A DNA stretch of 33,995 bases from a virus. Its lineage: Duplodnaviria; Heunggongvirae; Uroviricota; Caudoviricetes. The translations under genes were made by a program, and so were the position numbers. The stretch covers positions 1-33,995 of the IMG/VR virus record IMGVR_UViG_2778261513_000009; one strand, 5' to 3'. Positions within the stretch are counted from its first letter, which is position 1; every line of letters begins with the position of its first letter. The notes under the pieces are model-generated. The model saw only the letters and a program-made list of their open reading frames with translations. It ran no database searches and was not told the DNA's origin. Positions 1,413-33,413 of this stretch are shown here, piece after piece.

Positions 1413-1446
1413 TACAGCTGCATTTATTAAGGTTATCATCCGTTTC

Positions 1447-3562: not shown

Positions 3563-3575
3563 TTTGCCCCCTCTC

Positions 3576-6485: not shown

Positions 6486-6526
6486 CAGGAAAAGTGACCG
6501 GCCAGCCTCACTGACCGGGTAAGGGA

Positions 6527-7045: not shown

Positions 7046-7057
7046 GCTCTGAGCTCC

Positions 7058-8251: not shown

Positions 8252-8387
8252 CCGTTTAACTCCGTGGTTAAGGGTGAGTGTATTTTCTGTTGTGTGGTGG
8301 TGGCGGGCTATTTGTCAGGGTTGGATACGGTCTGACACAACCGGGGAGCAGGAAAGCGCGGGCAACCGCCCGCCTGAGTGATACCGG

Positions 8388-13090: not shown

Positions 13091-13305
13091 AGATAAAGGA
13101 TGCCGAGGGGCAGAGAATCCAGCAACAAAATGGAGTTTGATGAGAGCTAAGACAACATACCCTAATACTATCTATCATTGATGAAAGCACATCAGAGCAA
13201 TGATGCTATTGTGAGCTAGCGCGAATTATCAACTTCCGCTTTTGCGGTAGGAATGCATATGTTTAAAATGTTATATTCAAGAAAAAATTGACTGAGAGAT
13301 CTTTA

Positions 13306-14502
13306 ATGTTTGATTCGATAGTATTAAAACGCTCAATAGATGGCCCAACATTGACGATTGGCGAAATTGCTGAAGCATTAATTTTCTATCAAAATGTTCA
13401 CGTTGTAATGGACACATCAACCCTCCTCGGCATCATTAGAGAAATAGGGAGCCATAATGTAATCAAGTTATTAACACTCCCTGGTATAAAAACTACTTTC
13501 ATTGAGGAGTTCGTAGGTGTGTATGGCCAAGACACGTACCATGGAAAAGAGTACGCATTAATAAGCGCTTACTTTGCCGGAAGTGAAACAGATGGGGAAT
13601 TAAAAAGCTGGAAAAAAAGATTGGCAAACATGATTTCACGCCAAGGTTATAGCAAAGTTGAATCTGACAATTTTGTCGAAAGATTCAAAAGATGCGTAAC
13701 GTTAAAGAAACTCTCCAGCGACTACTTCATTAAAGGCGGTATAATATCAGCTGCACGTAGTGATTTAAATGATAGTGATTTCGTTTCATCGGCCGCACTC
13801 ATTATCTTGGAAGATTTATTACCTAAAGAGGAAATTACGAGCGACCTCTTTTATAAAACATTCCCAACCAGAGAAACCTTCCAAATCTCGACAAATATTA
13901 ATTTTGAAAAAATAAACAACTATAATGCTAATAAATTCTCTGACATTGGTGAAACAACCCCTGCAAGCATTGCAGCGGGAATCCTTAGCGCTTCATACGG
14001 ACTTATTTTAGCTGCTCACTACGGTGGCGATTTCTATACATCAGCGACAGACTCAAAGATCATTCAGTTCAAAAATAAACAACTACTCACCAGAACTAAC
14101 GCAAACCGTAAAGAACTAGAAACCTTCAATGAGGTGATTTTGAAGGATTGCCCAAATATATCCTCAATCATAAATAAAAAAGAACGTTCCTTTGAGGAAT
14201 TTTTAGAGTTACTTTCAAAAGCTAATAAATTTAAAAACTGGCTAAAAAACAAATCCCCAGATAAAAATCTTCTATCGAACTATGTTGATGATATTTCGAA
14301 AACAGGATGGATGGGAAGTAGTTATGGGAAGGCCTTACGTTACATTGTAAGTACTGGTGCAGGAATCATTAGCCCAGCGAGCGGACTTGCCATATCCGCA
14401 CTAGATACATTTTTATTAGACAGACTTAGCGCAGGCTGGAAACCAAATCAATTCGTCACATCAAAACTAAAACCTTTTGTTGATGTTAATGATGAATTTT
14501 AA
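13306..14502 (+). CDS. Hypothetical 398-aa protein of unknown function (AT-rich cargo gene between V and S, opposite strand)
   Basis: Long uninterrupted ORF in a markedly AT-rich segment (GC-rich backbone on both sides), antisense to the late operon and followed by its own hairpin terminator. I recognise no family. The ORF track starts at TTG 13288; ATG 13306 is the likely start. Confidence 0.6.
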   Translation: MFDSIVLKRSIDGPTLTIGEIAEALIFYQNVHVVMDTSTLLGIIREIGSHNVIKLLTLPGIKTTFIEEFVGVYGQDTYHGKEYALISAYFAGSETDGELKSWKKRLANMISRQGYSKVESDNFVERFKRCVTLKKLSSDYFIKGGIISAARSDLNDSDFVSSAALIILEDLLPKEEITSDLFYKTFPTRETFQISTNINFEKINNYNANKFSDIGETTPASIAAGILSASYGLILAAHYGGDFYTSATDSKIIQFKNKQLLTRTNANRKELETFNEVILKDCPNISSIINKKERSFEEFLELLSKANKFKNWLKNKSPDKNLLSNYVDDISKTGWMGSSYGKALRYIVSTGAGIISPASGLAISALDTFLLDRLSAGWKPNQFVTSKLKPFVDVNDEF

Positions 14503-14507
14503 ATGCT

Positions 14508-14533
14508 CCTAGAGGCTCAATTGCGCCTCTAGG
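14508..14533. terminator. Hairpin (cctagagg / cctctagg) between the convergent cargo gene and S
   Basis: Perfect 8-bp inverted repeat with a 10-nt loop, 6 nt after the cargo gene stop. Confidence 0.5.
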
Positions 14534-14562
14534 TACTTCTTAACACTCACATCACTTTAAAA

Positions 14563-15009
14563 TTAGCTCAGCTGTTTTATAGCCATCTCATAAATAATAT
14601 TTTTATCCACTGGGCTTAACCCAATCAATTGCCGTTCTGCATACTGTACCTCATGTGCGTGTTGGTTTGGTCGGTCTTTAAGTCCGTACTGATGAATCCG
14701 CGCGATACGTTGCACCTTCCCGGTAAACTCCACCACAGCAGCATCATTACGGCCACTGGCTTTCATGTAGCGGCTTGTTCTCAGCTTCTGAAACATCGTC
14801 CGTTTTATTCGACCTCTTTTTGCCCTGAGCGGCTGTGGCTTTCGCGCCTGATACGGCGTGCCATCAGGCGCTTTTTGCTGTTTTATGCGTTGCTGTTGCG
14901 ATTTGCGCAGTTCCTTCGCAATCTCTGCGGCCAGCTTACGTCGCGAAGCCGGTGACAATGCCCCGATAAGTCCCGCTAGTTTGTCGTCAAAAGGTGTTAA
15001 TTCACTCAT
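14563..15009 (-). CDS. S: Tail completion protein S
   Basis: 148-aa ORF after R; size and order as P2 gpS. Confidence 0.85.
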   Translation of the reverse strand: MSELTPFDDKLAGLIGALSPASRRKLAAEIAKELRKSQQQRIKQQKAPDGTPYQARKPQPLRAKRGRIKRTMFQKLRTSRYMKASGRNDAAVVEFTGKVQRIARIHQYGLKDRPNQHAHEVQYAERQLIGLSPVDKNIIYEMAIKQLS

Positions 15010-20409: not shown

Positions 20410-22179
20410 ATGACCATTTCAACTGACCTCTCCCTTTTGCACGACCCGCGACGACAGGCGCGCCTGCTGTTCTGGCAGGGGTTTTCCGTGCCACAAATCG
20501 CCGACACGCTGCAGGTCAAGCGCCCGACCGTGCAGAGCTGGAAACAACGTGACGGCTGGGAGGAAACCGCCCCGCTTAACCGCGTGGAATCCACGCTCGA
20601 GGCGCGCCTGATTCAGCTTTATGCAAAGCCTGACCTGACGCCGCATGATTTCAAGGTCGCTGATTTTCTGTCACGCCAGATGGAACGGCTCGCGCGTGTC
20701 AGCCGCTACGGCCAGACCGGAAACGAGGCAGATTTAAATCCCAACATTGCCAGCCGCAAAAAAGGCGACCGCCGCAAGCCAAAACGTAATTTTTTCAGCG
20801 ATGAGGCTATCGAAAAGCTCGAAGAGATTTTCTTCGATCAGTCCTTTGAGTATCAGCTCAACTGGCACAAGGCCGGTATCGCGCACCGTATTCGCCACAT
20901 CCTCAAATCGCGCCAGATTGGCGCAACATTCTACTTTGCCCGCGAGTCACTGCTGCGCGCCCTGAAAACCGGGCAAAACCAGATATTTTTGTCGGCCAGT
21001 AAGACGCAGGCTTACGTGTTCCGAAAGTACATCATCGCCTTTGCGCGCATGGTCGAGGTTGACCTGTCAGGCGACCCGATTGTCATCGGCAACAACGGCG
21101 CAGAGCTGATTTTTCTCGGGACAAATTCCAACACAGCGCAGAGTCATAACGGCGACCTGTATGTCGATGAAATCTTCTGGATCCCTAACTTTCAGAAACT
21201 GCGCAAAGTCGCCTCGGGGATGGCGTCACAGTCGCACCTGCGCACCACCTACTTTTCAACCCCCTCGACGCTGGCACATGGCGCCTATCCGTTCTGGTCA
21301 GGCGAGCTGTTTAACCGGGGACGCAGCAGCGCCGCCGAGCGTGTCGACATCGATATCAGTCATAAGGCGCTGGCCGGGGGCGTGCTGTGCCCGGACGGAC
21401 AGTGGCGGCAGATTGTCACCATCGAGGATGCGCTCGCCGGGGGATGCACGCTGTTTAATCTGGATCAACTGAAACAGGAAAACAGCGCCGATGATTTCCG
21501 CAACCTCTTCATGTGCGAGTTTGTCGACGACAAGGCGTCGGTATTCCCGTTCGAGGAGCTGCAGCGCTGCATGGTCGATGCGATGGAAGAATGGGAGGAC
21601 TTCGAGCCGTTTTCTGACCGTCCGTTTAACTGGCGTCCGGTCTGGATTGGCTATGCCCCGTCACATACCGGCGACAGCGCAGGCTGCGCGGTACTGGCTC
21701 CGCCACTGGTTGCCGGTGGCAAGTTCCGCATCCTTGAGCGTCACCAGTGGAAAGGCATGGATTTTGCGACGCAGGCCGAGGCCATCCGCGAGCTGACCGA
21801 AAAATACTGCGTCGAGTATATCGGCATCGATGCGACCGGCATAGGCCAGGGTGTTTACCAGCTCGTGCGCTCGTTCTTCCCGGCGGCGCGCGCCATTCGC
21901 TACACGCCGGAAATGAAAACCGCGATGGTGCTGAAAGCGAAAGACACCATCCGACGCGGGTGTCTGGAATACGACACCGGCGCAACCGACATCACACAGT
22001 CATTTATGGCTATCCGTAAAACCATGACCAGCAGTGGGCGAAGCTCCACCTATGAGGCCAGCCGCAGTGAAGAGGCCAGCCACGCGGATATTGCATGGGC
22101 AACCATGCACGCCCTGTTAAACGAGCCGCTTTCCGCCGGTAGCGGTATGCATTCAACGTCAATTCTGGATATTAACTGA
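20410..22179 (+). CDS. P: Terminase large (ATPase) subunit P
   Basis: 589-aa ORF, size as P2 gpP; divergent from O and followed by Q. Confidence 0.9.
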   Translation: MTISTDLSLLHDPRRQARLLFWQGFSVPQIADTLQVKRPTVQSWKQRDGWEETAPLNRVESTLEARLIQLYAKPDLTPHDFKVADFLSRQMERLARVSRYGQTGNEADLNPNIASRKKGDRRKPKRNFFSDEAIEKLEEIFFDQSFEYQLNWHKAGIAHRIRHILKSRQIGATFYFARESLLRALKTGQNQIFLSASKTQAYVFRKYIIAFARMVEVDLSGDPIVIGNNGAELIFLGTNSNTAQSHNGDLYVDEIFWIPNFQKLRKVASGMASQSHLRTTYFSTPSTLAHGAYPFWSGELFNRGRSSAAERVDIDISHKALAGGVLCPDGQWRQIVTIEDALAGGCTLFNLDQLKQENSADDFRNLFMCEFVDDKASVFPFEELQRCMVDAMEEWEDFEPFSDRPFNWRPVWIGYAPSHTGDSAGCAVLAPPLVAGGKFRILERHQWKGMDFATQAEAIRELTEKYCVEYIGIDATGIGQGVYQLVRSFFPAARAIRYTPEMKTAMVLKAKDTIRRGCLEYDTGATDITQSFMAIRKTMTSSGRSSTYEASRSEEASHADIAWATMHALLNEPLSAGSGMHSTSILDIN

Positions 22180-22180
22180 C

Positions 22181-23188
22181 ATGAAAAAACAACAGAATAA
22201 ACCCGCCACAACGACCGCCAGCGCGCCGCAAAAAATGGAGGCGTTCACCTTTGGCGAGCCCTCCGCCGTTCTGGATCGCCGCGATATCCTCGATTATGTC
22301 GAGTGCATCAATAACGGGAAGTGGTACGAGCCGCCGGTCAACTTCTCTGGTCTAGCAAAAAGCCTGCGAGCCGCCGTGCATCACAGCTCGCCGATTTACG
22401 TAAAACGAAATATTCTGACGAGCACCTACATCCCGCACCCGCTCCTGTCGCGTCAGGATTTCAGCCGCCTCGTGCTGGATTATCTGGTCTTTGCCAACGG
22501 CTATCTTGAGAAACGCATGAGTGTTACCGGCCAGCTTTTAAAACTGGAAACATCACCGGCTAAATATACCCGTCGTGGCGTCGAGGATGGCGTTTACTGG
22601 TACATATCGAGCTTTAACAACCCCCACCAGTTCGCACCCGGCTCGGTGTTTCACCTGCTGGAGCCTGACATCAATCAGGAGCTGTACGGCATGCCGGAAT
22701 ATCTGAGCGCATTGAATTCGGCATGGCTAAATGAATCCGCCACCCTGTTTCGTCGCAAGTATTACCAGAATGGCGCGCACGCGGGTTACATCTTGTATGT
22801 CACCGACGCTGCACAAAGCAGCACTGATGTTGAAGCACTACGCAAGGCAATGCGTGACTCAAAAGGACTCGGCAATTTCAAGAACCTATTTTTTTATGCA
22901 CCGAATGGAAAAGCTGATGGGATCAAAATTGTGCCACTCAGCGAAGTAGCAACGAAAGATGATTTCTTTAACATCAAAAAGGTTAGTGCAGAAGATTTGT
23001 TGAGTGCTCATAGGGTACCTCCACAAATGATGGGAATTATGCCTAACAATGTTGGCGGTTTTGGTGATGTTGTAAAAGCTGCACAAGTTTTTGTCCGAAA
23101 TGAGTTAACTCCTTTACAGGAACGGTTCAAAGAACTAAACAACTGGTTAGAAATGGACGTTATAAGATTTAAAAAATATTCACTTTGA
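22181..23188 (+). CDS. Q: Portal protein Q (3' third encoded by AT-rich DNA)
   Basis: 335-aa ORF starting 2 nt after the P stop; composition shifts to AT-rich near 22800. Confidence 0.9.
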   Translation: MKKQQNKPATTTASAPQKMEAFTFGEPSAVLDRRDILDYVECINNGKWYEPPVNFSGLAKSLRAAVHHSSPIYVKRNILTSTYIPHPLLSRQDFSRLVLDYLVFANGYLEKRMSVTGQLLKLETSPAKYTRRGVEDGVYWYISSFNNPHQFAPGSVFHLLEPDINQELYGMPEYLSALNSAWLNESATLFRRKYYQNGAHAGYILYVTDAAQSSTDVEALRKAMRDSKGLGNFKNLFFYAPNGKADGIKIVPLSEVATKDDFFNIKKVSAEDLLSAHRVPPQMMGIMPNNVGGFGDVVKAAQVFVRNELTPLQERFKELNNWLEMDVIRFKKYSL

Positions 23189-23253
23189 TTTTCGAAATAA
23201 ACATCTCAACATTATATTCAGCCCTGTAACTCAAGAACCACATATAATAACGT

Positions 23254-23278
23254 CACAGCCCACTTTATCGGGGCTGTG
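23254..23278. terminator. Bidirectional hairpin (cacagccc / gggctgtg) between convergent Q and the 370-aa cargo gene
   Basis: 8-bp perfect inverted repeat with a 9-nt loop and A/T-rich flanks. Confidence 0.5.
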
Positions 23279-23283
23279 ATAAT

Positions 23284-24396
23284 TTAACCAACCCTTGCTT
23301 TTTTATATGGACCACAACTCCAACTAAAGAAATTCTTACCTAACTTATACCATTTATCAGAAAGCACTGGTGTTAGGTGAGGATTATATTTTTTTAAACT
23401 TCCCTTTTGTATATATTTCAATGTATTGCTGAGCAAATTCTCTCCAAAACCATCATAACTTACACAAGCAGTGTTGCAGCTACAGCGTTTTGAGTCGATA
23501 TACTCACAATCATATTTTATATCAAGCTTCTTTAATATCGGACGCCAATATGCACCATGTTTTCGATCGAGTTCAAGGGCTGTTTTAAAATCAAAACCTT
23601 TTTTATGGTCAATGTAAAATTTTACTGATTCATCTACGGAGCAAAGATGCTTAAAGAAAATGAGAGATTTTTCTTTTTGTTGAAATTGACTTTGACTTCT
23701 TAATACATCTTCAATTGTCGATAAAGGAACTAGAGATTCTATTTCATGTACATCTAAAATCTCAACGAAACCTGAGCGAGTGATTTGTGAGCCCAAAAAA
23801 TGTGAGCAAGTACCCCCGAATGGGGCTCTAGGATGTTTTTTGTCATTATCCACAATACAAAAAACTATCTCATTATTTTGAATTGCACGCTCGAATACAT
23901 CCTTAGTACTACCCCCACCGCCATTTAGAGCGATAAAACCCATTTCGCAGCGAGATAAGTTAATACCTTCGGCATAATGAGCCGCTATAACTCTAAAAAA
24001 ATCAGAATCCAAAGGATTTTCACATACTATTTTCGTTTTTTGCAATTGTGCCGAGTCATTAAAATACAATGGACCACAAACAAATTTAAAAGATTCACCG
24101 TTCTGAACCCATCTAAATGATTTATCACTAATATTAAAGTCGACAGTTACATAAAATGAGACCTGGTTCAAGATAGCATAGTACTCTGTTAGACCCGACA
24201 AAGCCTCTTGCGCGTAACTTTTTGATGAAAGGCTATAAAGCCCGCTTTGATCATTGATAATAGTTTTAAAAAAAACCCTTGTCCCTATAACCAAGTGTTT
24301 TTGTTCAGCAAATGCCCGAAGTATATTCTCAACCGCTATGGCAAATGAATTATTTAGCACCTGCTCAGGTGTCGCATTTTCGATATGAATCAACAT
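23284..24396 (-). CDS. 370-aa protein with Toprim-like E...DxD core (putative nuclease effector), partner of the upstream ATPase
   Basis: Start codon 2 nt after the ATPase stop. Motifs read by eye: KIVCENPLDSDFF (E126), Gly-rich LNGGGGS, IVFCIVDNDKK (D183/D185) about 57 residues after the Glu, and a Cys-rich C-terminus. The Toprim assignment is unverified. Confidence 0.7.
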   Translation of the reverse strand: MLIHIENATPEQVLNNSFAIAVENILRAFAEQKHLVIGTRVFFKTIINDQSGLYSLSSKSYAQEALSGLTEYYAILNQVSFYVTVDFNISDKSFRWVQNGESFKFVCGPLYFNDSAQLQKTKIVCENPLDSDFFRVIAAHYAEGINLSRCEMGFIALNGGGGSTKDVFERAIQNNEIVFCIVDNDKKHPRAPFGGTCSHFLGSQITRSGFVEILDVHEIESLVPLSTIEDVLRSQSQFQQKEKSLIFFKHLCSVDESVKFYIDHKKGFDFKTALELDRKHGAYWRPILKKLDIKYDCEYIDSKRCSCNTACVSYDGFGENLLSNTLKYIQKGSLKKYNPHLTPVLSDKWYKLGKNFFSWSCGPYKKARVG

Positions 24397-24398
24397 AA

Positions 24399-25955
24399 CT
24401 ACTTACCAGAGAAAAAGCCAACCGGCCAATTTTGTAGGAAACCATTCTCGTCAAAATAAGATTTCTTAACTATGGTCTGCTGCTTTTCATCTTTTTCAAA
24501 TACCAGTATTGAAATATCATCCTGTGAAAGATTTTCATTTTCCTCAATATATTCACCAAGTGCTTCAATCATGGTCTGGCTATGTGTCTCAAAAATTATC
24601 TTCAAATCCACATTGTTTTCTTTTGCTTTAGTTACTACTTTTGCAAAAATACTTGCTAAATTATGTTGATATGACGGATGTAAATGCAATTCTGGCTGCT
24701 CAATGATAAATGTTATAGGTTTTCTAACCGTGGTAGCACGACGTTCTGTCTCAAGCCAAATGGCTGTAACTATCGGCAAAACCTGAGAGTAACCAAACCC
24801 CATATCACTAACATTATAGTTCTCACTATTTTCACCGGTATTTATTAAAATTGCAAAGTGAGAGCCACTTTGTTCAACCTTAATAATGAAATCAAAATTT
24901 AACTTTGTCCAATCTTCAAATTTTGATTTATCAGCCGGCCTTAATGAATTCAAAAGCATTGCAAGATTGGAACCAGTATGATCTATCTCATTAACCTGTA
25001 AATCTTGAAAGCGATAAAATCTTTCTGATGTAGCACGCAGTGGAGCTATGTACTTTACATTTCTGAATGAATCTGACAAGGATGTATTTATTATATCTAT
25101 AAGATTATTAATATTCCATCCAATTATAAATGGATATAACTCATTCATTATTTCATCATGTTGAAGTTCAAAGTTTCTACTAAAAACTTTTTGTTCCTTG
25201 AATAGAAAAGCAACTAATTTACTGGCGTACGCTTTGGGTATAAAGCCAATTCTTTTGAATGCCTCTGTCACTTGATTTATATCAGATTTAGTATGGAAAT
25301 ATTTCTTTATATATTTCGCTGCTGAATCAATAAATGACAATTCTAATGCCCTGTCATGCCTAGAATGTCTCAAATAGAATGATGTGCTTGGAGGAGGACT
25401 ATCTTCCTTACCCTTCAAAATTAGATTGGGTATGAACTGCCCAAGATTTTTAGCTATTATCCCATCACGCTCTATTGTTTTATCATCTGATTCAATGAGT
25501 AACTTAACATTACTGTTCTCATCCATTGAAATAAATATTGTTAAATCAGCCAATATAAGCTTAATCGTTTTTGTTTTTGTTTTTTTATCTTTAGAGTAAA
25601 CAGTCAACTCTGCTTCAACATCTGTTGGTTGCTTTGCTAAATCAGTAAAACGATAATATGTATATCTTTGTGAAACCTCTGGCGGAATTGAGAGTGAAAA
25701 ACTGAACGTAATTTCTTTTTTTTCAGAGTTTCGGGAAAGTACATCTGTAAAATCGCCAAAATCCACATATCGCCCATACCATAGTATTGGACCAGTAGTA
25801 TTTTCTTCTACAGATTGACGAAGTAAAGGAAATGTACGCAATAGGGAACTTTTACCACTGCTGTTCTTACCAACAAATACTGTAATTGGTTTTAAATCAA
25901 TAAAAGTTTTGTTGACAAAGCTCCTGAAGTTTTGAAGACCTATACCCTTAATCAT
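24399..25955 (-). CDS. ABC-type (AAA_15/AAA_21-like, OLD/AriA-like) P-loop ATPase, 518 aa
   Basis: Walker A VFVGKNSSGKSSLL; Walker B-like FIIEQPELHLHP; H-loop-like IFETHSQ. Start taken at ATG 25955 (MIKGIGLQNFRSF), which has GGAG 8 nt upstream; the ORF track extends to 26042 across the GC/AT junction. Confidence 0.8.
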   Translation of the reverse strand: MIKGIGLQNFRSFVNKTFIDLKPITVFVGKNSSGKSSLLRTFPLLRQSVEENTTGPILWYGRYVDFGDFTDVLSRNSEKKEITFSFSLSIPPEVSQRYTYYRFTDLAKQPTDVEAELTVYSKDKKTKTKTIKLILADLTIFISMDENSNVKLLIESDDKTIERDGIIAKNLGQFIPNLILKGKEDSPPPSTSFYLRHSRHDRALELSFIDSAAKYIKKYFHTKSDINQVTEAFKRIGFIPKAYASKLVAFLFKEQKVFSRNFELQHDEIMNELYPFIIGWNINNLIDIINTSLSDSFRNVKYIAPLRATSERFYRFQDLQVNEIDHTGSNLAMLLNSLRPADKSKFEDWTKLNFDFIIKVEQSGSHFAILINTGENSENYNVSDMGFGYSQVLPIVTAIWLETERRATTVRKPITFIIEQPELHLHPSYQHNLASIFAKVVTKAKENNVDLKIIFETHSQTMIEALGEYIEENENLSQDDISILVFEKDEKQQTIVKKSYFDENGFLQNWPVGFFSGK

Positions 25956-26327
25956 TCCTAGCTCCATTAGTTCAATAAAATCAATCGATTTTGAGACAAT
26001 CTTAATATCTTTGACAGGCGCGCGCAATGCTATCCCCGCCACGCCTGCCCGCTTAACGGGTCGCTTTTAATGCAGTTGCATGACCACACAGGATCCGCGC
26101 CAGCTCTGGCGGCGCGCGGCCAGAACGGGCAACCCTGACGCATGCAAAGCAATGCACCTGTTGCATGCGCGGCTAAAAAACCGGGAAATTGTGGGAAAAT
26201 GGCATAATAAAACCGGCTTTAATCGTGCCGGTTGAGGTTGGTCTCTACGGGACAGGCTAACGCCTCGCGGGGCTCGTTGTTCAACCCCGCAGGCACTGAA
26301 AACAAGTTTCAGCACCGGCGGCGTTTG

Positions 26328-26576
26328 CTAAGGTCGACGCGGTGGTGGCTTCGACATATTTGGTTGCCGAAACGCCTCAATTTTCGGATTGCTGATATCG
26401 CTGTATTTGCGGTGATTATCCCGGACGACACCGGCACATCCGACCAGTTCGTCAGGGGTCAGATTCTCGTTGATCATAATTTGCTGCAGGCGATGCACGA
26501 CGGCCATCAGCTTAATGTTTTGCGTTGAATGTACCGGCGGCACTGGCATCATTCGCATATGACTCATTTTAACCAC
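26328..26576 (-). CDS. Hypothetical small protein (82 aa) downstream of the ASCH-like gene
   Basis: ORF only; position corresponds to small early-operon ORFs of P2-like phages. No motif recognised. Confidence 0.3.
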   Translation of the reverse strand: MVKMSHMRMMPVPPVHSTQNIKLMAVVHRLQQIMINENLTPDELVGCAGVVRDNHRKYSDISNPKIEAFRQPNMSKPPPRRP

Positions 26577-27028
26577 CCATTTTTTTTAGCATATGCGACC
26601 ATCTTGTCGGAATATTGCCAGACACCATCATCAGCGACGTAAGCCCCACCCGAAACGCCGTTAAGCGTTTCATATCCAATAGCCAGCCCTAACGGATGTA
26701 GAATTTCGTGATTAATTCTGAAAACAAGCCCTTTCTCGCTTAACTCTTTCCAGTTCATTAGTGACATACCGCACTGGACATCTGGCATCATTAACTGAAA
26801 ACTCAGCATCACATAATTTTCCGCCCATTCAGCTAAATCAGTAACGTTTGTCACCCTCACTGATACACGTTTCCCGGTATATCCGTTTACCGGTTCCCAT
26901 TCATGCAACCCGAGAATATCACCACTAGAATAATCGCGGTCATTGAAACGAAATTCAGCACGTTTTTCCTGAGATATCACCGCTTTAAAATGCTCAGGTG
27001 CAATTTTTAACTGATGGATTTTGCTCAT
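26564..27028 (-). CDS. Hypothetical protein with N-terminal ASCH/DUF3850-like domain and a C-terminal extension
   Basis: Start ATG 27028 with AGGAG 8 nt upstream, 5 nt after the A stop. N-terminus MSKIHQLKIAPEHFKAVISQEKRAEFRFNDRDY resembles DUF3850-type proteins as I recall them. Confidence 0.5.
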   Translation of the reverse strand: MSKIHQLKIAPEHFKAVISQEKRAEFRFNDRDYSSGDILGLHEWEPVNGYTGKRVSVRVTNVTDLAEWAENYVMLSFQLMMPDVQCGMSLMNWKELSEKGLVFRINHEILHPLGLAIGYETLNGVSGGAYVADDGVWQYSDKMVAYAKKNGWLK

Positions 27029-27033
27029 TAACT

Positions 27034-29319
27034 TTACTCCTCTTGCATTGAGAATCCCGGCCACTCATCAGCAGCCGCGTATTTGAATTTTTTATCGCCA
27101 TAAATCACCGTTGCCCCACGCGCCAGCGCTTCAAGCTCCCACCGTTCCGGGGTAATGCTCTCCTGAGCCAAATCGAAACGAATTTTCGCTATGCGATCCC
27201 TTTCTGGTTTTGTCATCCTGGCTGATGGCGCTTGCTCGCTCGTTTTGAGTGGAGCATGGCTTCTTTGCTGGCGATTTTTGCGAGGGATACCAGCTTTTAA
27301 CGCGCCGTTAAGCACCTTCATGACGTCTGGCTCATTCCAGCCGATAACCCCGCGCTCAATCAGATTTAACACCGCTGCGGCTTGCTCAGACGGTGTGGGT
27401 GTCATAACTGGAGCATCACCGCCGGTGAGCTTTCCACAGTTATTGACAGGACTCCGAGGCGCGGCAGAGCCGCTTTTTAAGGTCAAAGGCTCAACGGCCA
27501 AAATCTTTGGAACAATGCGCCATTCGGCTGTACGGGTTACATGTATGCGACTCGCCCCGAGGTGAGGGGCATAAATGCCGACCACTCTCTCGATATCTTC
27601 CTCATATTCGTTGACCTCATCAGTCACCTTACGGGCGACCCTAACGGCCTGCGCATCACGCGGCATGTTTGCCCCACCCTGTGCGATGATATACAGGTTA
27701 AATTCACCTTCATCAGCAGCAGCCCGGACAGCCTCGACCCGGTCGTCAAACTCACTGGCGATACTCACGCCGCGCGGCAGCTTGCGCAGTTCGCGGTAAG
27801 CGCCCATTGTCGGTAGGCCAATTGGTTTAAACTGCGGGATGCGCCATGTAGACGCCCATGCAGTTACGGCTGCGGCGGTATCTTTCAGAGGCTTTCCGGT
27901 GTCGTGGTCGATCTGGCCGTCGAGTGCGTAGCCGTCGATATTTTTGGCAATGTATTTAGCGATATAACCCGCCGCACCGCCCTGATTAAGATGACGTGAC
28001 TCAAAGCGCTGTTTTGCCGCTCCCTTTTCGTGCCCGTCCTCTTTGAGAGCATAACGACGCATAATTTCGTTAATAGCTTTACGCTGACCGGGTTTGCAAA
28101 ACAGCATCATGTGCCAGTGTGGCGTCCCGTCGTGGTGCGGTTCGACAACACGCATCCCGTAAACCTCTAAATCGTTATCTTTGAAAGCGGTGCGTATCAG
28201 GCTCCAGATTCGGCACAGATAGCGCTGGCCGTCTTTGGGGGTAAATGCGGTTTCATTCCAGCCATGATTGAGCTACACAGTTTTGTTTTCACCTTTGCCG
28301 ACCTGTCGGGTCGGGTGATACTTCGATGGCGTGGTCAGCGTGATAAACATCCCCACGTCACCAACGCAGGCCGCGTAGCGTTCAATCCCGGCGATAGTGT
28401 TCATCAGTTCCATACGCCGTATTTCAGGGTTAGAAATACTCCCCATTACCTTACTGATGAGGTCGATACGTTCGCCGGTGACTTTGTTTTCCAGCTCGCA
28501 GGATTTCAGGTATTCGAGATTAGCCAGGCGGCGCGCGTGCACATCGCGGATCGCCATTTTGCTTGCGTAAGGTGAGCGGTCTTTGTTGACCTCGCCAGCC
28601 GCAATAAGCAGCGCCTCGCGCCAGCGCATCCGCTGCGCCTTGAGCTGGCTGACCCACCACTCATCTTTTATCAGACGGGAAATAGCAGAAAATGCCATGC
28701 GGATCGTCATCTGACCCTTACGGTATTTTTTCCAGTACATCGGGGTGAAGTTAAAAGCGCGAGCAATACCGGCCACCTGACCGTATAAATGCGCCTGCGC
28801 CTCATCGGTGAATAAAGTGTCTTTCCCGCCGTGCGCCTCCTCCCATGCGTCGCTTAACTCCTCGTATTTGCTCCAGAGTTGAGAAGCAATTCTGGCCGCA
28901 AACTTCTTAAGCTCTTTGTCATTCATATCCGGCAGGCGCACATACTGGTCACGCTCGGACAAAAAACCAATCGAGGCGGATTCATTCATTCCGCACAGCT
29001 CATTAACACGCTCAAGACGCGGCAGCAACTTGCGCTCAAACGTGTTTTTGAGGAAATACAGCCCACCCAAGGGGCTCTTTGTGCGGCGGATGAAGTTATA
29101 ACGCGAGGTAAACAGCGTTTGCAGGAAAAACGGCAGGCGATCAATCCGGTTTAAAACACCTTGCACCTGACGGAGTTCGGCACGTGTAAGGGGTCTGTCG
29201 CGGCCAACTGCCTCGCGGGATTTATTCCACGGATAAGCACCGACGAAATTATCACCGGTGCTTTTTGGTAGTGGCGGAGGTGGCGAGGGGGCAACGCGCC
29301 CCCGAGTTTCAACGGCCAT
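27034..29319 (-). pseudogene. A: Replication initiation protein A (rolling-circle HUH endonuclease) interrupted by an in-frame amber codon at 28273-28275
   Basis: ORFs 28273-29397 and 27034-28155 are in the same frame; the 117 nt between them has no stop other than TAG at 28273-28275. The joined product would be about 761 aa from ATG 29319, carrying the HUH motif (HWHMMLF) and a tandem-tyrosine motif (YIAKYIAK). Confidence 0.8.
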
Positions 29320-29584
29320 CTGCAGCAAACGCAATCTGACATTGCTGACCAATGCGCTCGACCTGCTCGCCAATGTCCGCAAAACTAGCCGCCTCACCGG
29401 TCAGAATGCCATGTAATATCAGACCAGATACGAGTCTGGAAACTGTTGGATAATAGCCAATTACACCGAGCCACTCTTTACCGGCGCTCTTTCCTGATTT
29501 TGCGGTTTTCTTTTCCTGCAAAATAAATTGAAACTGGTCACTAGTGACGACGAAACGGTCGCCCACCTCAATATAAATTGACAT
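29309..29584 (-). CDS. Hypothetical early-operon protein (orf82/83-like position)
   Basis: 91-aa ORF immediately upstream of A, overlapping its start by 11 nt. Confidence 0.55.
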   Translation of the reverse strand: MSIYIEVGDRFVVTSDQFQFILQEKKTAKSGKSAGKEWLGVIGYYPTVSRLVSGLILHGILTGEAASFADIGEQVERIGQQCQIAFAADGR

Positions 29585-29883
29585 TATTTACCACCTTTCC
29601 GATTTAATTTTTTTAGCTCACACGCACAATATGTAGATTGTTCAGCCATGAATTGTATTAATTCATCCACAGTGGTTATTTTCTTGCGATAAATAGCACG
29701 TTTGACAATTAGGTCGACAACATCAGAAAACAGATTTAACTCATTCGAATAAATAGCGATAACTGACCCAACCATCAAGCCAGATTCTTTATCACTTTTG
29801 AGGTCAGACAGAGATAAATCACCATTTTTGAGAACGGCAACTTTTAACCAGCCATTGAGAATCACAGATTTCAGCACAGACAT
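29584..29883 (-). CDS. Hypothetical early-operon protein (99 aa, AT-rich)
   Basis: ORF tightly packed in the early operon; about 38% GC. Confidence 0.5.
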   Translation of the reverse strand: MSVLKSVILNGWLKVAVLKNGDLSLSDLKSDKESGLMVGSVIAIYSNELNLFSDVVDLIVKRAIYRKKITTVDELIQFMAEQSTYCACELKKLNRKGGK

Positions 29884-30140
29884 TAAACAGCCTCCCCACG
29901 GGCGAGACCTGCGTTATGAAGTACCGTTGATTCCTGGCTGAGTAACTCGACAATCTCAACACGCCCCAACTCCTGCGTAACGATATGTTGAATCAGTTTA
30001 TCCAGATGAAATGAGAATATAGTCGCTGCGTCGGCCTGCGCTTCTGCTCTGGCCTGCTGAAGCAATAAAGAAAAATTGCTGCTTTGCTTTTCCGTTCCTG
30101 TAAGCATGACTTTCTCCAGACAAAAAGAAGTCCCGCACAA
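29883..30140 (-). CDS. Hypothetical early-operon protein
   Basis: 85-aa ORF between B and the downstream small ORFs; start uncertain. Confidence 0.45.
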
Positions 30141-30170
30141 TCAAGTGCGTTTAAAATTTAGATTATTTAA

Positions 30171-30671
30171 TTAATGCAAATATTGCTCAGGCTTGACCGA
30201 TGTTAATATCGTCGGCGCGTACTCAAACAGGCTAAACAACTCACGTAAAGCACGAAATAAATTTTCACGCCAATAACATGATTCTTCATTAATACGCCAG
30301 TAAGGCTGATTAAATTCAACCTCACTTAACCCTGCATGTAAAAACAATGACCGCCGTTGGCTAACCGTTAGAAAACTAATATATGCGGACTCACTTGAGC
30401 CAACCTGACGACGTTTTGAAAATGCAGCACGTAGCTCGTCGATAGCGCACACCAGACGCTCCCGGTCTACATCGTTCATTTCTTCAAGACGCATCGTCGC
30501 ATGACGCTGTTTTAATTGAGCATGAAAACAGACCGTCAGGCGGTCGCGTTCCATCATTTGATTATAGAAATCACAGCTATCCTGCCAGCGGGGCGCTGCA
30601 AGATATTTACCAATCAGACTACGTAATCCTTCTGGCTGCTTGTCCACAATGGCAAGGGTCATAACCGTCAT
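30171..30671 (-). CDS. B: Replication protein B (helicase-loader-like)
   Basis: 166-aa ORF, same length as P2 gpB, with an N-terminus (…TLAIVDKQPEGLRSLIGKYLAAPRWQDSCDFYNQM…) that I recall as resembling P2 B. Confidence 0.7.
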   Translation of the reverse strand: MTVMTLAIVDKQPEGLRSLIGKYLAAPRWQDSCDFYNQMMERDRLTVCFHAQLKQRHATMRLEEMNDVDRERLVCAIDELRAAFSKRRQVGSSESAYISFLTVSQRRSLFLHAGLSEVEFNQPYWRINEESCYWRENLFRALRELFSLFEYAPTILTSVKPEQYLH

Positions 30672-30838
30672 AACGATACCCCTATGGATTTTATGAAGCG
30701 TTTAGTCATGGCAAAAAATCCCGGCTTACGGGTGCGGATGATGATGCCTTTACGTCCCTTACCGTGAGTAATCTTGAACGTCATCGGCTGGGGACTTTCC
30801 TTACGAAGTAGCTGCGCAATACAACGTGGTTCTTGCAT
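30668..30838 (-). CDS. Small basic hypothetical protein (56 aa)
   Basis: ATG 30838 preceded by a GGAGG ribosome-binding site; translation MQEPRCIAQLLRKESPQPMTFKITHGKGRKGIIIRTRKPGFFAMTKRFIKSIGVSL. Confidence 0.5.
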   Translation of the reverse strand: MQEPRCIAQLLRKESPQPMTFKITHGKGRKGIIIRTRKPGFFAMTKRFIKSIGVSL

Positions 30839-30937
30839 AAATCCTCCATTAAGTAGCCGGGTTTTGCCCATGCCCGGCACATGGTCTTGTGGTAGGATTG
30901 AATCGCCAAAAACAACTCCACCACTAAGAGGTAAAAA

Positions 30938-31129
30938 GTGAACAATCAAAAACTTAATGAATTAATTACCACTCTTGAACAAGCCGTAGCATTAATTGAG
31001 TCTCTACCAACCCCAATGGGTGACGTGGAAAAATCGAATCAAGTCGATGTATTGACAATTAAGTTAAGAGAATTAGCTCACTCAAAAAAACCAAATCATC
31101 TTCAAGGGTTTATTGATATAAACGACTAA
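30938..31129 (+). CDS. Small 63-aa predicted helical protein, convergent with the 139-aa gene (AT-rich cargo)
   Basis: GTG start with AAGAGG 6 nt upstream; AT-rich; stop overlaps the stop of the convergent 139-aa gene. Confidence 0.45.
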   Translation: MNNQKLNELITTLEQAVALIESLPTPMGDVEKSNQVDVLTIKLRELAHSKKPNHLQGFIDIND

Positions 31130-31545
31130 GCGTCTAATTCATGTGGTGCGGCTTTTTTGGGACGATGCGACCGCACCATCACATTAAAAATGTCATCCCA
31201 ATCATCTTTGCTCATTAGCGTAATACCCAGCTCCCGAGCCTTTTCTCTTACACAGCGCGCCAGATATAAACGATTATCAATACTTATCCCTATAGCCCTT
31301 TCTTTCATGCGGCCGTAGTTATCAGAAAGAAGCTGTATCAAGTCAAGGCGTAGTATTTCAACTGAGCCATCAGTGCTGCGAAAAACTAAATCATCACCAT
31401 CAATAAACACTGGTTCACTTTTGAGCTCTTCGCTACTCACCCACTTACGCAGACTTCGTGGAACAACAAGACTATTTGAAGGTGTCATTTCGTCTAATTC
31501 ACCACTGAATAAAGCCACTTTTATGGTTTTCAACTGATGTTCCAT
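31126..31545 (-). CDS. 139-aa hypothetical protein directly downstream of cox (AT-rich cargo)
   Basis: ATG 31545 with AAGGGGG ribosome-binding site; about 38% GC against a roughly 55% backbone; N-terminal segment LVVPRSLRKWV is faintly AbrB/SpoVT-like. Confidence 0.6.
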   Translation of the reverse strand: MEHQLKTIKVALFSGELDEMTPSNSLVVPRSLRKWVSSEELKSEPVFIDGDDLVFRSTDGSVEILRLDLIQLLSDNYGRMKERAIGISIDNRLYLARCVREKARELGITLMSKDDWDDIFNVMVRSHRPKKAAPHELDA

Positions 31546-31609
31546 TTCTACCCCCTTATGCCGACTGGTCAGCTAGCCATTCACAAACTGAGCGATGTAT
31601 TTCAACCGG

Positions 31610-31879
31610 TTAAGACCCTAAGCCCAACCACATTAGCCACCCTTCCCTAATTTCTTTCGGGCGACTTTCATATGCGAGTTTCATGCCGTTGTTCCATGCT
31701 GGGAGGTAAACCCAGTATTCACCTACTGTTCCGCTGGTTGACTGCGGATCAGTCATTTTAATAATGGGTAGCTTCCCTTTATCAATCATTCCCCGAACAG
31801 CCATGGGAGTCTTACCAATAAGCCTTGCGAACTCTTGATAAGGGACTGCATCAGTTACACTTACAAGCTGTTTGCTCAT
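31610..31879 (-). CDS. cox: Cox (excisionase / repressor of Pc)
   Basis: 89-aa translation MSKQLVSVTDAVPYQEFARLIGKTPMAVRGMIDKGKLPIIKMTDPQSTSGTVGEYWVYLPAWNNGMKLAYESRPKEIREGWLMWLGLG is near-identical to P2 Cox as I recall it. Confidence 0.85.
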   Translation of the reverse strand: MSKQLVSVTDAVPYQEFARLIGKTPMAVRGMIDKGKLPIIKMTDPQSTSGTVGEYWVYLPAWNNGMKLAYESRPKEIREGWLMWLGLGS

Positions 31880-31904
31880 CTGTTACGATTCTCCTTTAGT
31901 GCTA

Positions 31905-31941
31905 TTAATTGCTCTTAATGGGGTTTAATTGCTCTTAATGG
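31905..31941. promoter_or_regulatory. Two 17-bp direct repeats ttaattgctcttaatgg spaced 20 bp apart (putative operator at the early promoter)
   Basis: Perfect copies at 31905-31921 and 31925-31941 in the cox-C divergent region; P2 C repressor is known to bind direct repeats flanking the early promoter. Confidence 0.55.
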
Positions 31942-31971
31942 TGATTCACCCATCGGAAAGATAAATCTACG

Positions 31972-32000
31972 ATAGGTGATAATATTCAACTATAGGTGAT
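31972..32000. promoter_or_regulatory. Two 9-bp direct repeats ataggtgat spaced 20 bp apart, just upstream of C (putative Cox or C binding site at Pc)
   Basis: Copies at 31972-31980 and 31992-32000, ending 3 nt before the C start codon. Confidence 0.45.
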
Positions 32001-32003
32001 TTT

Positions 32004-32303
32004 ATGTCAATAGAGATTCATGAAAAAATCAAGCTCATCAGAGAGTCTGAAAGACTAAATAGAAGAGAATTCAGTGAGTTAACAGGGATCGTTTACGGTT
32101 CTTTTTGTAGCTATGAGGCTGGCGATAAAAAACCAGGTGTGGAGCAAATAATGAAAATCCTTCAACACCCGCGCTTCACCAAGTACACGATGTGGTTTAT
32201 GACTGATCAAATAACACCTGAAGCTGGGCAGATTGCACCGGCTCTCGCGCACTTTGGGCAGCCGACAACAACGTCACCCCACTCAGACCAGAAAACTGGC
32301 TAA
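32004..32303 (+). CDS. C: Immunity repressor C
   Basis: 99 aa, same length as P2 C; C-terminal ...FTKYTMWFMTDQITPEAGQIAPALAHFGQPTTTSPHSDQKTG strongly resembles P2 C. Confidence 0.85.
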   Translation: MSIEIHEKIKLIRESERLNRREFSELTGIVYGSFCSYEAGDKKPGVEQIMKILQHPRFTKYTMWFMTDQITPEAGQIAPALAHFGQPTTTSPHSDQKTG

Positions 32304-32399
32304 CAATTTACGGCGCTTTTTTGTGCAGTAAATGCACTGTGAGTTTTTGTTATTTAAATCAGGAAATTGAAGTACGCAGTAACATCATCGGGAGGCTTT

Positions 32400-33413
32400 A
32401 TGTCTGTTAAAAAGCTCGATGATGGTCGATATGAAGTGGACGTCAGACCTGCAGGGCGCAACGGAAAGCGCATCCGCAGGAAGTTCGATAAGAAAAGTGA
32501 AGCTATCGCTTTTGAAAAATATACTCAGTACAACCATCACAACAAAGATTGGTTGGCTAAACCGACAGATAAGCGGCATCTGTCAGAATTAACAAAAGTC
32601 TGGTGGGATTTGAAGGGCAAGCATGAGACTCATGGTCGAGATTATCTAGGAAAAATTGAGTTATTCACAAGGATTACAAGTGACCCATGCGCATTTCAGA
32701 TTACTAAATCATTGATTAGCCAGTACGGCACGGTGCGCCGTTCTCAGGGCATCAAACCATCGAGCATCAACCGCGATTTGACTTGCCTTAGCGGAATGTT
32801 TACCTCGTTGATAGATGCAGAGCTATTTTTCGGTGAACACCCTTTCAGAGGTGTTAAGCGACTGAAAGAGGACAAACCTGAAACTGGCTACCTCACGCAA
32901 GAGGAGATCGCTGATCTACTGTCGAAAGTCGATGGGGATAATAAGAAAATAGCGATTCTTTGTCTTAGCACCGGCGCGAGATGGAGTGAGGCTGCAAAAT
33001 TGAAAGCTGAAAACATCATCCAAAATCGCGTCACGTTCGTTAAGACAAAAACCAACAAACCGCGAACCGTTCCGATATCCGAGGAGCTGGCAACAATGAT
33101 CACATCAGGAAAGCGTGGCTATCTGTTCACGAACGCTAACTATCCTGCATTCAGACGATTAATGAAAGAGTTGAAACCGGACTTGCCACCGGGTCAGGCG
33201 ACGCACGCATTGCGTCACAGCTTTGCCACTCACTTTATGATTAACGGAGGCAGCATTATCACGCTTCAACGGATACTCGGGCACTCACGAATTGAGCAGA
33301 CAATGACCTATGCACATTTCGCCCCTGAGTACCTGCAGGACGCGGTAACGCTTAATCCTTTACGCGGTGGCACTGATGCTCTGAGTGTCCACACAATGTC
33401 CACGCTTGAATGA
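32400..33413 (+). CDS. int: Tyrosine integrase (P2 Int family)
   Basis: MSVKKLDDGRYEVDVRPAGRNGKRIRRKFDKKSEAIAFEKY... and C-terminal ...HALRHSFATHFMINGGSIITLQRILGHSRIEQTMTYAHFAPEYL match P2 Int as I recall it, including the catalytic R/H/Y region; GGGAGG ribosome-binding site. Confidence 0.9.
   Translation: MSVKKLDDGRYEVDVRPAGRNGKRIRRKFDKKSEAIAFEKYTQYNHHNKDWLAKPTDKRHLSELTKVWWDLKGKHETHGRDYLGKIELFTRITSDPCAFQITKSLISQYGTVRRSQGIKPSSINRDLTCLSGMFTSLIDAELFFGEHPFRGVKRLKEDKPETGYLTQEEIADLLSKVDGDNKKIAILCLSTGARWSEAAKLKAENIIQNRVTFVKTKTNKPRTVPISEELATMITSGKRGYLFTNANYPAFRRLMKELKPDLPPGQATHALRHSFATHFMINGGSIITLQRILGHSRIEQTMTYAHFAPEYLQDAVTLNPLRGGTDALSVHTMSTLE

What the first reader, a model, noticed from the sequence alone, without database searches (positions are those of the whole stretch)
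22780..26012. Compositional island whose left junction lies inside portal gene Q
GC-rich backbone switches to AT-rich DNA near 22800, inside Q, and back to GC-rich near 26010, inside the N-terminal extension of the ATPase ORF. The last third of Q is therefore encoded by foreign-looking DNA contiguous with the ATPase/Toprim cargo. This is the signature of cassette exchange by homologous recombination using conserved flanking genes as arms.
Basis: seen in the sequence. Interest (0 to 1): 0.45.

Follow-up and report, generated by a model that had tools for sequence, protein, structure and literature searches.

The report
Swapped defence cassette reaching into portal gene
This AT-rich stretch is the known swappable accessory-gene slot beside the packaging site of a P2-like E. 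coli prophage; its left edge really lies inside the portal gene, which shows that these cassettes are exchanged by recombination within that gene.

Summary
GC falls from 0.53 to 0.346 over 22800-26012, the lowest-GC stretch of that length in the window. Inside portal gene Q only third-codon GC drops, from about 22810.

The island is the cos-proximal accessory/defence hotspot of a P2-like E. coli prophage (Rousset 2022). This cargo is already listed in that paper's tables.

Left junction: the near-isogenic S42 prophage, which carries different cargo, loses identity at about 22825. The DR28 prophage has a different backbone and the same cargo, and becomes 97-100% identical from about 22973 to cos.

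Right junction: it is not inside the ATPase gene. The "N-terminal extension" is an ORF-calling artefact running over the cos site (19-mer at 26027-26045). All relatives regain homology at 26020.

The pattern is general. In 17 P2-like loci with at least 1 kb of cargo between Q and cos, the Q tail is AT-shifted over 25-125 codons. It often carries a distinct C-terminal allele. In 56 loci without such cargo it is not shifted.

The cargo is an NsnB/AriA-like ABC ATPase (DUF3696) plus a 370-aa OLD-type Toprim protein from a large family with no Pfam model. It is probably an anti-phage system, but this is untested.

The cassette-exchange reading is supported. This is a known kind of system with a modest new fine-scale detail.

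The parts
20410..22179 (+). gpP terminase large subunit: conserved backbone left of the island
   Evidence: 589-aa ORF. It is 95-100% identical to the S42 prophage and annotated as terminase ATPase subunit in relatives.
22181..22824 (+). Portal gene Q, segment I: backbone-type, GC-rich (GC3 0.47-0.73)
   Evidence: Mismatch rate is 0.05 per nt against S42 and against L010. ML breakpoints are 22828 and 22825. GC3 profile.
22825..22972 (+). Portal gene Q, segment II: AT-shifted, with no close relative outside the four near-identical E. coli strains. Inferred to be donor-derived DNA that DR28 lacks.
   Evidence: Identity is 75-85% to every compared Q, including S42 and DR28. GC3 is 0.33-0.40.
22973..23188 (+). 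Portal gene Q, segment III: AT-rich C-terminal tail co-inherited with the cargo (class B allele, ...PPQMMGIMPNNVGGFGDVVKAAQ...)
   Evidence: 98-99% identical to DR28 despite an 88-95% backbone. Protein identity of the last 68 aa is 0.985 to DR28 but 0.70 on average to 45 no-cargo relatives with similar heads. The class B motif is associated with Q-cos cargo.
23252..23281 (.). GC-rich hairpin between the convergent Q and cargo genes; probably a bidirectional terminator
   Evidence: Predicted fold of -19.9 kcal/mol, z = -3.6 against shuffles. P2 and 186 have annotated tQ/tW terminators at the equivalent place. Function is inferred.
23284..24396 (-). Cargo gene 2: 370-aa protein with an OLD-type Toprim fold, predicted nuclease effector
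24399..25955 (-). Cargo gene 1: ABC-type ATPase (AAA_15) with a C-terminal DUF3696 helix, NsnB/AriA-like
   Evidence: Pfam AAA_15 1.6e-26, AAA_21 7e-19, DUF3696 6e-7. PADLOC NsnB 7e-55, PDC-M55A 3.5e-46, AriA 3.6e-31. RefSeq orthologue is 518 aa, 'DUF3696 domain-containing protein'. An alternative in-frame ATG lies at 25967.
25956..26019 (.). AT-rich leader of the cargo operon, which ends the island
   Evidence: Sequence. No convincing sigma-70 consensus was found. It is unalignable with S42, A38, ENT4 and P2.
26020..26074 (.). cos core. The 19-nt cohesive-end sequence is at 26027-26045 (reverse complement GGCGTGGCGGGGATAGCAT) and is preceded by the conserved GCGCGCA. This is the right junction of the island.
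   Evidence: One mismatch to the annotated 186 cos and three to P2 cosL/cosR. P2, ENT4, A38, S42 and DR28 all regain homology here. The 26-nt core (19-mer plus flanking GCGCGCA) is identical next to the same cargo in a Pectobacterium element.
26075..27064 (-). Backbone right of cos: spacer, an 82-aa ORF and the DUF3850 (P2 orf91-like) gene. There is no cargo on this side.
   Evidence: Identity to S42 rises from 90% just right of cos to 100%. Pfam DUF3850. The cos-to-A distance is 992 bp, near the minimum seen among relatives.

Best explanation
The island is the accessory/defence cargo slot next to the cos packaging site of a P2-like (Peduoviridae) prophage of E. coli.

In this phage the cargo lies on the Q side of cos, so it would be at the extreme left end of the packaged genome. 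In P2 itself, old and tin lie on the A side of cos.

The cargo is a two-gene operon transcribed towards Q. Gene 1 is an ABC ATPase with a DUF3696 tail. Gene 2 is a separate OLD-type Toprim protein. By analogy with PARIS, Septu and Menshen, the ATPase most likely holds or regulates the Toprim nuclease and releases or activates it on phage infection. This step is inferred.

The island was installed by replacement, not insertion. One crossover fell inside the 3' third of Q. It falls at the downstream edge of codons 201-267, the most conserved part of Q. The other crossover fell in or beyond the ~55-bp cos core.

Because the left crossover can fall anywhere in the Q tail, a variable length of the donor's Q tail travels with the cassette. 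That tail is AT-rich and has a distinct protein sequence. Here it is about 364 nt, made of two nested pieces (22825-22972 and 22973-23188).

Shown here: the composition shift, the breakpoints, the cos position, the linkage of the tail to the cargo, and the generality across relatives. Inferred: which recombination enzymes act, the order of events, the identity of the donor, and the defence function.
For: Composition.

P2-like context: gpP, Q, DUF3850 and gpA. The same island occurs in 39 of 5426 complete E. coli genomes, always on the chromosome.

cos: the 19-mer is at 26027-26045 and matches the annotated 186 and P2 cos sites. All relatives regain homology at 26020.

Cassette swap between near-isogenic backbones: S42. 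Same cassette on another backbone: DR28.

Generality: 56 unique loci have 150-177 bp between Q and cos, and their Q tail GC3 differs from the head by -0.02. Seventeen loci have at least 1 kb of AT-rich cargo there (GC 0.33-0.43), and their tail differs by -0.18 (Mann-Whitney p = 1.8e-7). The AT tract reaches 25-125 codons into Q.

Tail allele: the class B C-terminal allele occurs in 9 of 19 sampled loci (duplicates included) with at least 1 kb of Q-cos cargo and in 1 of 57 without. AT-rich class B tails sit on A-type heads with at least six unrelated cargos and group together in a tree.

No transposase, terminal inverted repeats or target duplications lie at the boundaries.

Literature: the gpA-gpQ region next to cos is a described hotspot with rapid swapping, and recombination has been proposed (PMC9122126; PMC13586616). 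This cargo's partner protein, WP_000906719, is listed in Rousset's locus table.

Cargo identity.
Against: No donor with a wholly AT-rich Q was found among about 120 distinct Q tail sequences or in the sequenced-phage collection. The source of the AT-rich tail therefore remains open.

The loci are not phylogenetically independent, so the p-values overstate the support.

Identity between donor-type and recipient-type Q tails is only 54-81%, which is low for RecA-dependent exchange. The actual parents may have been more alike, or a phage recombinase or cos-end pathway may be involved.

In this copy gpA carries an amber codon, so the prophage may no longer replicate.
Confidence: 0.85

Rival explanations
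1. The cassette is exchanged by recombination started at the cohesive end itself. A cos end cut by terminase, or a freshly injected one, invades another P2-like or P4-like genome, and a second homologous crossover in Q completes the swap. This is Rousset et al.'s speculation. It is a variant of the best explanation that differs only in how the right-hand crossover arises.
For: In every comparison the heterologous DNA starts only 7 nt from the 19-nt cohesive-end sequence. The same gene pair, in the same polarity relative to cos, lies next to cos in P4-like satellites of Pantoea and Pectobacterium, which have no Q. The proposal is made in PMC9122126.
Against: The sharp boundary is equally expected from ordinary homologous recombination, because the cos core is the first conserved sequence on that side. 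Window and DR28 identity falls only gradually across cos, from 0.98 to 0.90-0.94, which does not pinpoint a crossover at the nick. The P2 and P4 copies are only 65-70% identical in protein, so no recent exchange is documented.
Confidence: 0.3
2. The AT-rich Q tail is not imported DNA. It arose in place, either by AT-biased mutation or by selection on sequence next to an AT-rich, H-NS-type silenced island. On this view the junction inside Q is a composition gradient, not a recombination breakpoint.
For: No wholly AT-rich donor Q was found. GC3 declines progressively towards the stop codon in several loci. Within the more distant class B clade, tails next to cargo are mildly AT-shifted compared with tails without cargo.
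Against: Mismatch density against near-isogenic S42 and L010 jumps five- to six-fold at 22825-22828 rather than rising gradually. The tail also differs in protein sequence: 0.70 versus 0.92 identity to relatives with similar heads, and it carries a distinct shared motif. DR28, on another backbone, carries the identical tail at 98-99%. AT-rich tails from different backbones group together.
Confidence: 0.06
3. The cargo was inserted between Q and cos by a site-specific or transposition event, and the divergence of the Q tail is unrelated allelic variation of a fast-evolving portal C-terminus.
For: The Q-cos interval is a fixed 150-177 bp in 57 loci and is expanded in others, which looks like an insertion site.
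Against: There is no recombinase or transposase gene, and there are no flanking direct or inverted repeats. The native ~165-bp spacer is replaced rather than split. Among 45 no-cargo relatives with similar heads the Q tail is as conserved as the head (0.96 versus 0.95 pairwise), so it is not intrinsically fast-evolving. Tail allele and cargo presence are associated.
Confidence: 0.04

Closest known systems
P2 cos-proximal hotspot between gpA and gpQ (old/tin locus of P2; Rousset et al. 2022, PMC9122126; Moura de Sousa et al. 2026, PMC13586616)
   Same: It is a P2-like prophage with AT-rich accessory cargo directly adjacent to cos, between Q and A. Unrelated cargos occur in near-identical backbones. 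This very gene pair is listed in Rousset's locus table.
   Different: In P2 the cargo (old, tin) lies on the A side of cos. Here it lies on the Q side, 7 nt from the cohesive-end sequence. In the sample the two sides are rarely both occupied: 2 of 14 versus 32 of 50, Fisher p = 0.0017. The published work treats linkage between defence and core genes as near zero at whole-gene level. Here a short-range linkage covers the last 25-125 codons of Q.
PARIS (AriA ABC ATPase + AriB DUF4435 Toprim nuclease)
   Different: The ATPase scores higher with NsnB, PDC-M55A and HEC-03B models and has a DUF3696 tail. The partner matches no DUF4435 or AriB model. The partner is 370 aa, with an extra N-terminal domain and a Cys-rich C-terminal region.
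Menshen (NsnA DUF262 + NsnB ABC ATPase-DUF3696 + NsnC adaptor-effector; PMC12065111)
   Same: The best PADLOC match of the ATPase is NsnB (7e-55), and it has the DUF3696 tail that is predicted to bind NsnC. Some NsnC effectors are Toprim-family nucleases.
   Different: There is no NsnA/DUF262 gene: only two genes lie between Q and cos. The partner matches no NsnC model.
OLD-family nucleases (P2 Old; class 1 and class 2) and Gabija GajA
   Different: The ATPase and Toprim domains are on two polypeptides. There is no GajB-type helicase. Sequence similarity to Old and GajA models is confined to the P-loop or ATPase C-terminus.
P4-like satellite hotspot (between cos/psu and int)
   Same: The same ATPase-plus-partner pair, in the same orientation relative to cos, is found in a Pantoea P4-like element (psu-delta-psu, cos-like site, pair, int) and in a degraded Pectobacterium one.
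   Different: Those copies are 65-70% identical in the partner protein and have no Q gene, so there is no chimeric portal junction. P2-to-P4 exchange is reported as rare.

Membership tests
P2-like cos-proximal accessory/defence hotspot (gpA-gpQ) | Lies between portal gene Q and replication gene A of a P2-like phage | tested here: met
   The order is P, Q, cargo, cos, DUF3850, A. Relatives are annotated the same way.
P2-like cos-proximal accessory/defence hotspot (gpA-gpQ) | [quoted passage not shown] | tested here: met
   The 19-mer at 26027-26045 matches the annotated 186 and P2 cos sites. The cargo ends 7 nt from it.
P2-like cos-proximal accessory/defence hotspot (gpA-gpQ) | Unrelated cargo in closely related backbones | tested here: met
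   S42 has a 93-100% identical backbone with DUF262 cargo. At least 12 distinct cargo sets were seen among 17 loci.
P2-like cos-proximal accessory/defence hotspot (gpA-gpQ) | Cargo confers protection against other phages | not testable with these tools
   Listed in Rousset 2022 Table S5A but not among the systems cloned and tested.
PARIS | AriA: AAA_15/AAA_21 ABC ATPase | tested here: inconclusive
   The PADLOC AriA model matches at 3.6e-31, but NsnB (7e-55), PDC-M55A and HEC-03B score higher.
PARIS | AriB: DUF4435 Toprim protein | tested here: not met
PARIS | Triggered by Ocr-type anti-restriction proteins; effector cleaves tRNA | not testable with these tools
   This needs experiments.
Menshen | NsnB: ABC ATPase with C-terminal DUF3696 | tested here: met
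   Pfam AAA_15 plus DUF3696. PADLOC NsnB 7.3e-55.
Menshen | NsnA: DUF262/ParB-like sensor gene in the operon | tested here: not met
   Only two ORFs of at least 80 aa lie between Q and cos, and neither has DUF262. The same two-gene layout is seen in six other genomes.
Menshen | NsnC: N-terminal adaptor plus C-terminal nuclease effector | tested here: inconclusive
   The partner has an N-terminal alpha/beta domain followed by a Toprim-like domain. It matches no NsnC model.
OLD-family nuclease | Toprim catalytic Glu and DxD motif | tested here: met
OLD-family nuclease | ATPase and Toprim on one polypeptide | tested here: not met
   There are two separate ORFs, 24399-25955 and 23284-24396.
Gabija | GajB UvrD-type helicase partner | tested here: not met
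   There is no helicase gene in the island.

The most novel reading that the evidence does not exclude
The distinct portal C-terminal allele (class B, ...PPQMMGIMPNNVGGFGDVVKAAQ...) that travels with cargo placed between Q and cos may not be a passive hitch-hiker. It could be functionally co-adapted. One possibility is that it lets the phage package or eject a genome whose left end begins with foreign DNA 7 nt after the cohesive end. Another is that it makes the phage's own portal invisible to a linked defence system that senses the portals of competing P2-like phages. On this reading 'portal tail plus cargo' would be a co-selected module.
Probability: 0.07. Interest if true: 0.65.

Novelty: new member of a known kind. 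Interest (0 to 1): 0.36.

Why it matters
Two recent studies show that P2 and P4 hotspots swap defence systems very fast. Both leave the mechanism open.

This window, together with its S42 and DR28 relatives, gives a base-level picture of one such swap. One crossover lies inside the portal gene, and the other boundary lies at the edge of the cos core.

The survey shows a consequence: part of an essential structural gene is dragged along with the cargo and becomes chimeric.

There are also three practical points. ORF callers will extend the first cargo gene across cos. Whole-gene measures of linkage between defence and core genes will miss a linkage that spans only ~75-375 nt. The cargo itself is a widespread ATPase-plus-Toprim pair with no Pfam model for the Toprim partner, and it is a reasonable candidate for defence-system testing.

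Tried and rejected
Donor search. I looked for a P2-like phage with a wholly AT-rich Q or a near-identical tail.
- blastn and tblastn against 50,697 phage records gave at best 72% nt and 81% aa identity.
- An exact AT-wobble DNA pattern in IMG/VR found only the same cassette.
- A tail-only protein search listed only truncated portal ORFs, at 91% identity or less.
- Two of their contigs were further chimeric Q genes with other cargo.
- A tail-ranked IMG/VR scan found class B tails in a more distant clade, but no fully AT-rich Q.
The donor remains unidentified.

Other checks.
- The promoter scan found no more matches than shuffled sequence, so the cargo promoter was not located.
- The repeat search found no boundary repeats.
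- Rfam found nothing in the island.
- I considered that gpA was split by an insertion. It is a single CAG-to-TAG change.
- pro483 and PhiR44_1 were checked as possible isolated phages with Q-side cargo, but their annotated Q-cargo spacing suggests A-side cargo (cos was not located in them).


Full report
**1. The observation**

Sliding-window GC is 0.52-0.61 up to 22799. It is 0.30-0.39 from 22800 to 25999, and 0.56 again at 26000-26399. Two-segment likelihood fits place the change-points at 22874 and 26013, with likelihood-ratio statistics of 153 and 102. GC is 0.346 inside 22800-26012 and 0.533 outside.

The lowest-GC 3233-bp window of the whole sequence starts at 22784. No non-overlapping window of that size falls below 0.423.

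Q is 22181-23188 (+), 335 aa, and matches Pfam Phage_portal. Within Q, third-codon GC falls from 0.53-0.73 to 0.23-0.40 from about 22811. GC at codon positions 1+2 barely changes.

**2. Layout and the right junction**

The gene order is:
- gpP, 20410-22179 (+)
- Q, 22181-23188 (+)
- a hairpin at 23252-23281
- a 370-aa ORF, 23284-24396 (-)
- an ATPase ORF ending at 24399 (-)
- GC-rich DNA, then DUF3850 at 26564-27064 (-) and gpA

The sequence ATGCTATCCCCGCCACGCC at 26027-26045 is the reverse complement of GGCGTGGCGGGGATAGCAT. That is one mismatch from the annotated cos of phage 186 and three from P2 cosL/cosR.

I aligned the window with S42, DR28, A38, phage ENT4 and P2. All of them regain homology at 26020, at GCGCGCA followed by the 19-mer. 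P2 stays similar only to about 26074, which marks a cos core of roughly 55 bp.

The 547-aa ORF begins at a GTG at 26042, inside the cos 19-mer. The AAA_15 match begins at ORF residue 30. RefSeq calls the orthologue 518 aa, which corresponds to an ATG at 25955. The right junction is the edge of cos.

In P2 the cargo genes old and tin lie on the other side of cos, in the order A-orf91-tin-old-cos-Q. Here the cargo lies between Q and cos.

**3. The left junction is a recombination breakpoint**

The same island occurs in 39 of 5426 complete E. coli genomes. Four match at 99% or more and the rest at about 96.5%.

*S42.* The E. coli S42 prophage is 93-100% identical to the window across P and Q up to about 22790. 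Identity is then 79-80%, then 66% in the last 100 nt of Q. Its cargo is unalignable: a DUF262 protein plus a 202-aa protein. Identity returns to 90-100% from cos rightwards. Mismatch density jumps from 0.05 to 0.25 per nt at 22828. Against the cargo-less relative L010 the jump is at 22825.

*DR28.* The DR28 prophage has an 88-95% backbone. It is about 80% identical over 22790-22970, and then 97-100% identical from 22973 through the whole cargo to cos.

Q is therefore a three-part mosaic:
- Segment I, 22181-22824: backbone.
- Segment II, 22825-22972: AT-shifted, with no close relative outside the same prophage.
- Segment III, 22973-23188: linked to the cargo.

No repeats, transposase or integrase mark the boundaries.

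**4. Generality**

I compared 80 unique P2-like loci from IMG/VR and E. coli.
- Fifty-six have 150-177 bp between the Q stop codon and cos. Their tail-minus-head GC3 difference is -0.02.
- Seven have 380-566 bp.
- Seventeen have 1.0-3.2 kb of AT-rich DNA there (GC 0.33-0.43). Their tail GC3 is 0.505 against a head GC3 of 0.68. The Mann-Whitney p-value against the first group is 1.8e-7, but the loci are not independent.

The AT tract reaches 25-125 codons into Q. The window has the longest tract seen.

The tails also differ in protein sequence.
- Class A (HRVPFQLMGGKPEN...) is found in P2, in 186 and in 55 of 57 loci without cargo.
- Class B (HRVPPQMMGIMPNN.GGFGDV.KAAQ) is found in the window.
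- Nine of the 11 class B loci have at least 1 kb of cargo between Q and cos.

Among 45 no-cargo relatives with similar heads the tail is as conserved as the head (0.96 versus 0.95 pairwise). The window's tail is only 0.70 identical to them.

AT-rich class B tails sit on A-type heads beside at least six unrelated cargos, and they group together in a protein tree. Class B is also the native, GC-rich tail of a more distant Q clade at 71-78% identity. No wholly AT-rich Q was found, so the ultimate donor is unresolved.

Cargo on the Q side and cargo on the A side of cos rarely coexist: 2 of 14 versus 32 of 50, Fisher p = 0.0017.

**5. The cargo**

*ATPase.* It matches Pfam AAA_15 (1.6e-26), AAA_21 and DUF3696. 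In PADLOC it matches NsnB (7e-55), PDC-M55A, HEC-03B and AriA (3.6e-31).

Foldseek gave nothing significant. E126, D183, D185 and E220 are invariant over 50 members at 18-70% identity. That is the Toprim Glu plus DxD signature.

The partner family has 1869 representatives at E <= 1e-3 and no Pfam model. The gene pair is conserved in Pectobacterium, Pantoea, Klebsiella aerogenes, Providencia, cyanobacteria and a Lachnoanaerobaculum. It is AT-rich in all of them.

*Classification.* The architecture is PARIS-like or Menshen-like. It is not a member of either family by their defining models, because it has no DUF4435/AriB match and no NsnA gene. The Menshen literature predicts that the DUF3696 tail docks the effector. 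By that analogy I infer an ATPase-gated Toprim nuclease that acts on phage infection. This is untested.

**6. What is already known**

Rousset et al. 2022 defined the gpA-gpQ locus next to cos as a hotspot and speculated about recombination mediated by the cos ends. Their locus table lists this very partner protein, WP_000906719, as "AAA_15/AAA_21 + hypothetical".

Moura de Sousa et al. 2026 showed very fast swapping and near-zero linkage between defence genes and core genes at whole-gene level.

So the kind of feature, and this locus itself, are known. What this analysis adds is:
- the base-level anatomy of a swap
- a short-range linkage that reaches into Q
- two alternative cargo sites flanking cos
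- the Toprim assignment of the partner protein

**7. Verdict**

This is a new member of a known kind and is of modest interest.

Noticed in passing
window 28273-28275: Replication gene A is colinear with relatives (97% aa identity over 761 residues) but carries an in-frame amber codon at codon 349: TAG here, CAG in S42 and DR28. The prophage may therefore be replication-defective.
   Followed up: yes
window 1445-1530 (+): A full-length CyaR/RyeE sRNA (Rfam RF00112, 100 bits) lies near the left end of the window. It suggests host chromosome and a prophage integration site next to cyaR.
   Followed up: no
window ~13100-14560: There is a second AT-rich island (GC 0.39-0.42) between baseplate spike gene V (12449-13090, -) and tail gene S (14563-15009, -). 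It holds one 404-aa ORF on the opposite strand (13288-14502, +) with no significant Pfam hit and no PADLOC hit. From my memory of the P2 map, this is where P2 carries orf30.
   Followed up: partly
L102 (Pantoea ananatis) 2901-9255; L089 (Pectobacterium sp. PL152) 5235-9396: The same ATPase-plus-partner pair sits in P4-like satellite hotspots, in the same polarity relative to cos. In Pantoea the order is psu-delta-psu, a cos-like site, the pair, then int. In Pectobacterium the 26-nt cos core (19-mer plus flanking GCGCGCA) is identical to the window's, and the adjacent integrase is split into two ORFs. P2-to-P4 sharing of defence genes is reported as rare.
   Followed up: partly
80 related loci (L001-L088): Cargo on the Q side of cos and cargo on the A side of cos are nearly mutually exclusive: 2 of 14 versus 32 of 50, Fisher p = 0.0017. 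This would fit a packaging-size limit.
   Followed up: partly
L090 (Morganella psychrotolerans) 5436-8068: A copy of the same gene pair is broken by frameshifts in both genes and has no cos, Q or A nearby. This is a decayed chromosomal copy.
   Followed up: no
L097 5522-6540; L098: Some relatives have a frameshifted or truncated Q next to other Q-side cargo: DUF4325 plus a 371-aa protein in L097, and a NACHT protein in L098. The protein database holds many 130-240-aa portal fragments.
   Followed up: no
window 24399-25955 (-): The ATPase Walker B region reads FIIEQPELHLHP, with EQ in place of the usual DE. This recalls the atypical Walker B reported for NsnB.
   Followed up: no
window 29400-33000: The early and regulatory region right of gpA has lower GC (0.38-0.47) and contains several small DUF5405/DUF2732-type ORFs. 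I did not examine it.
   Followed up: no
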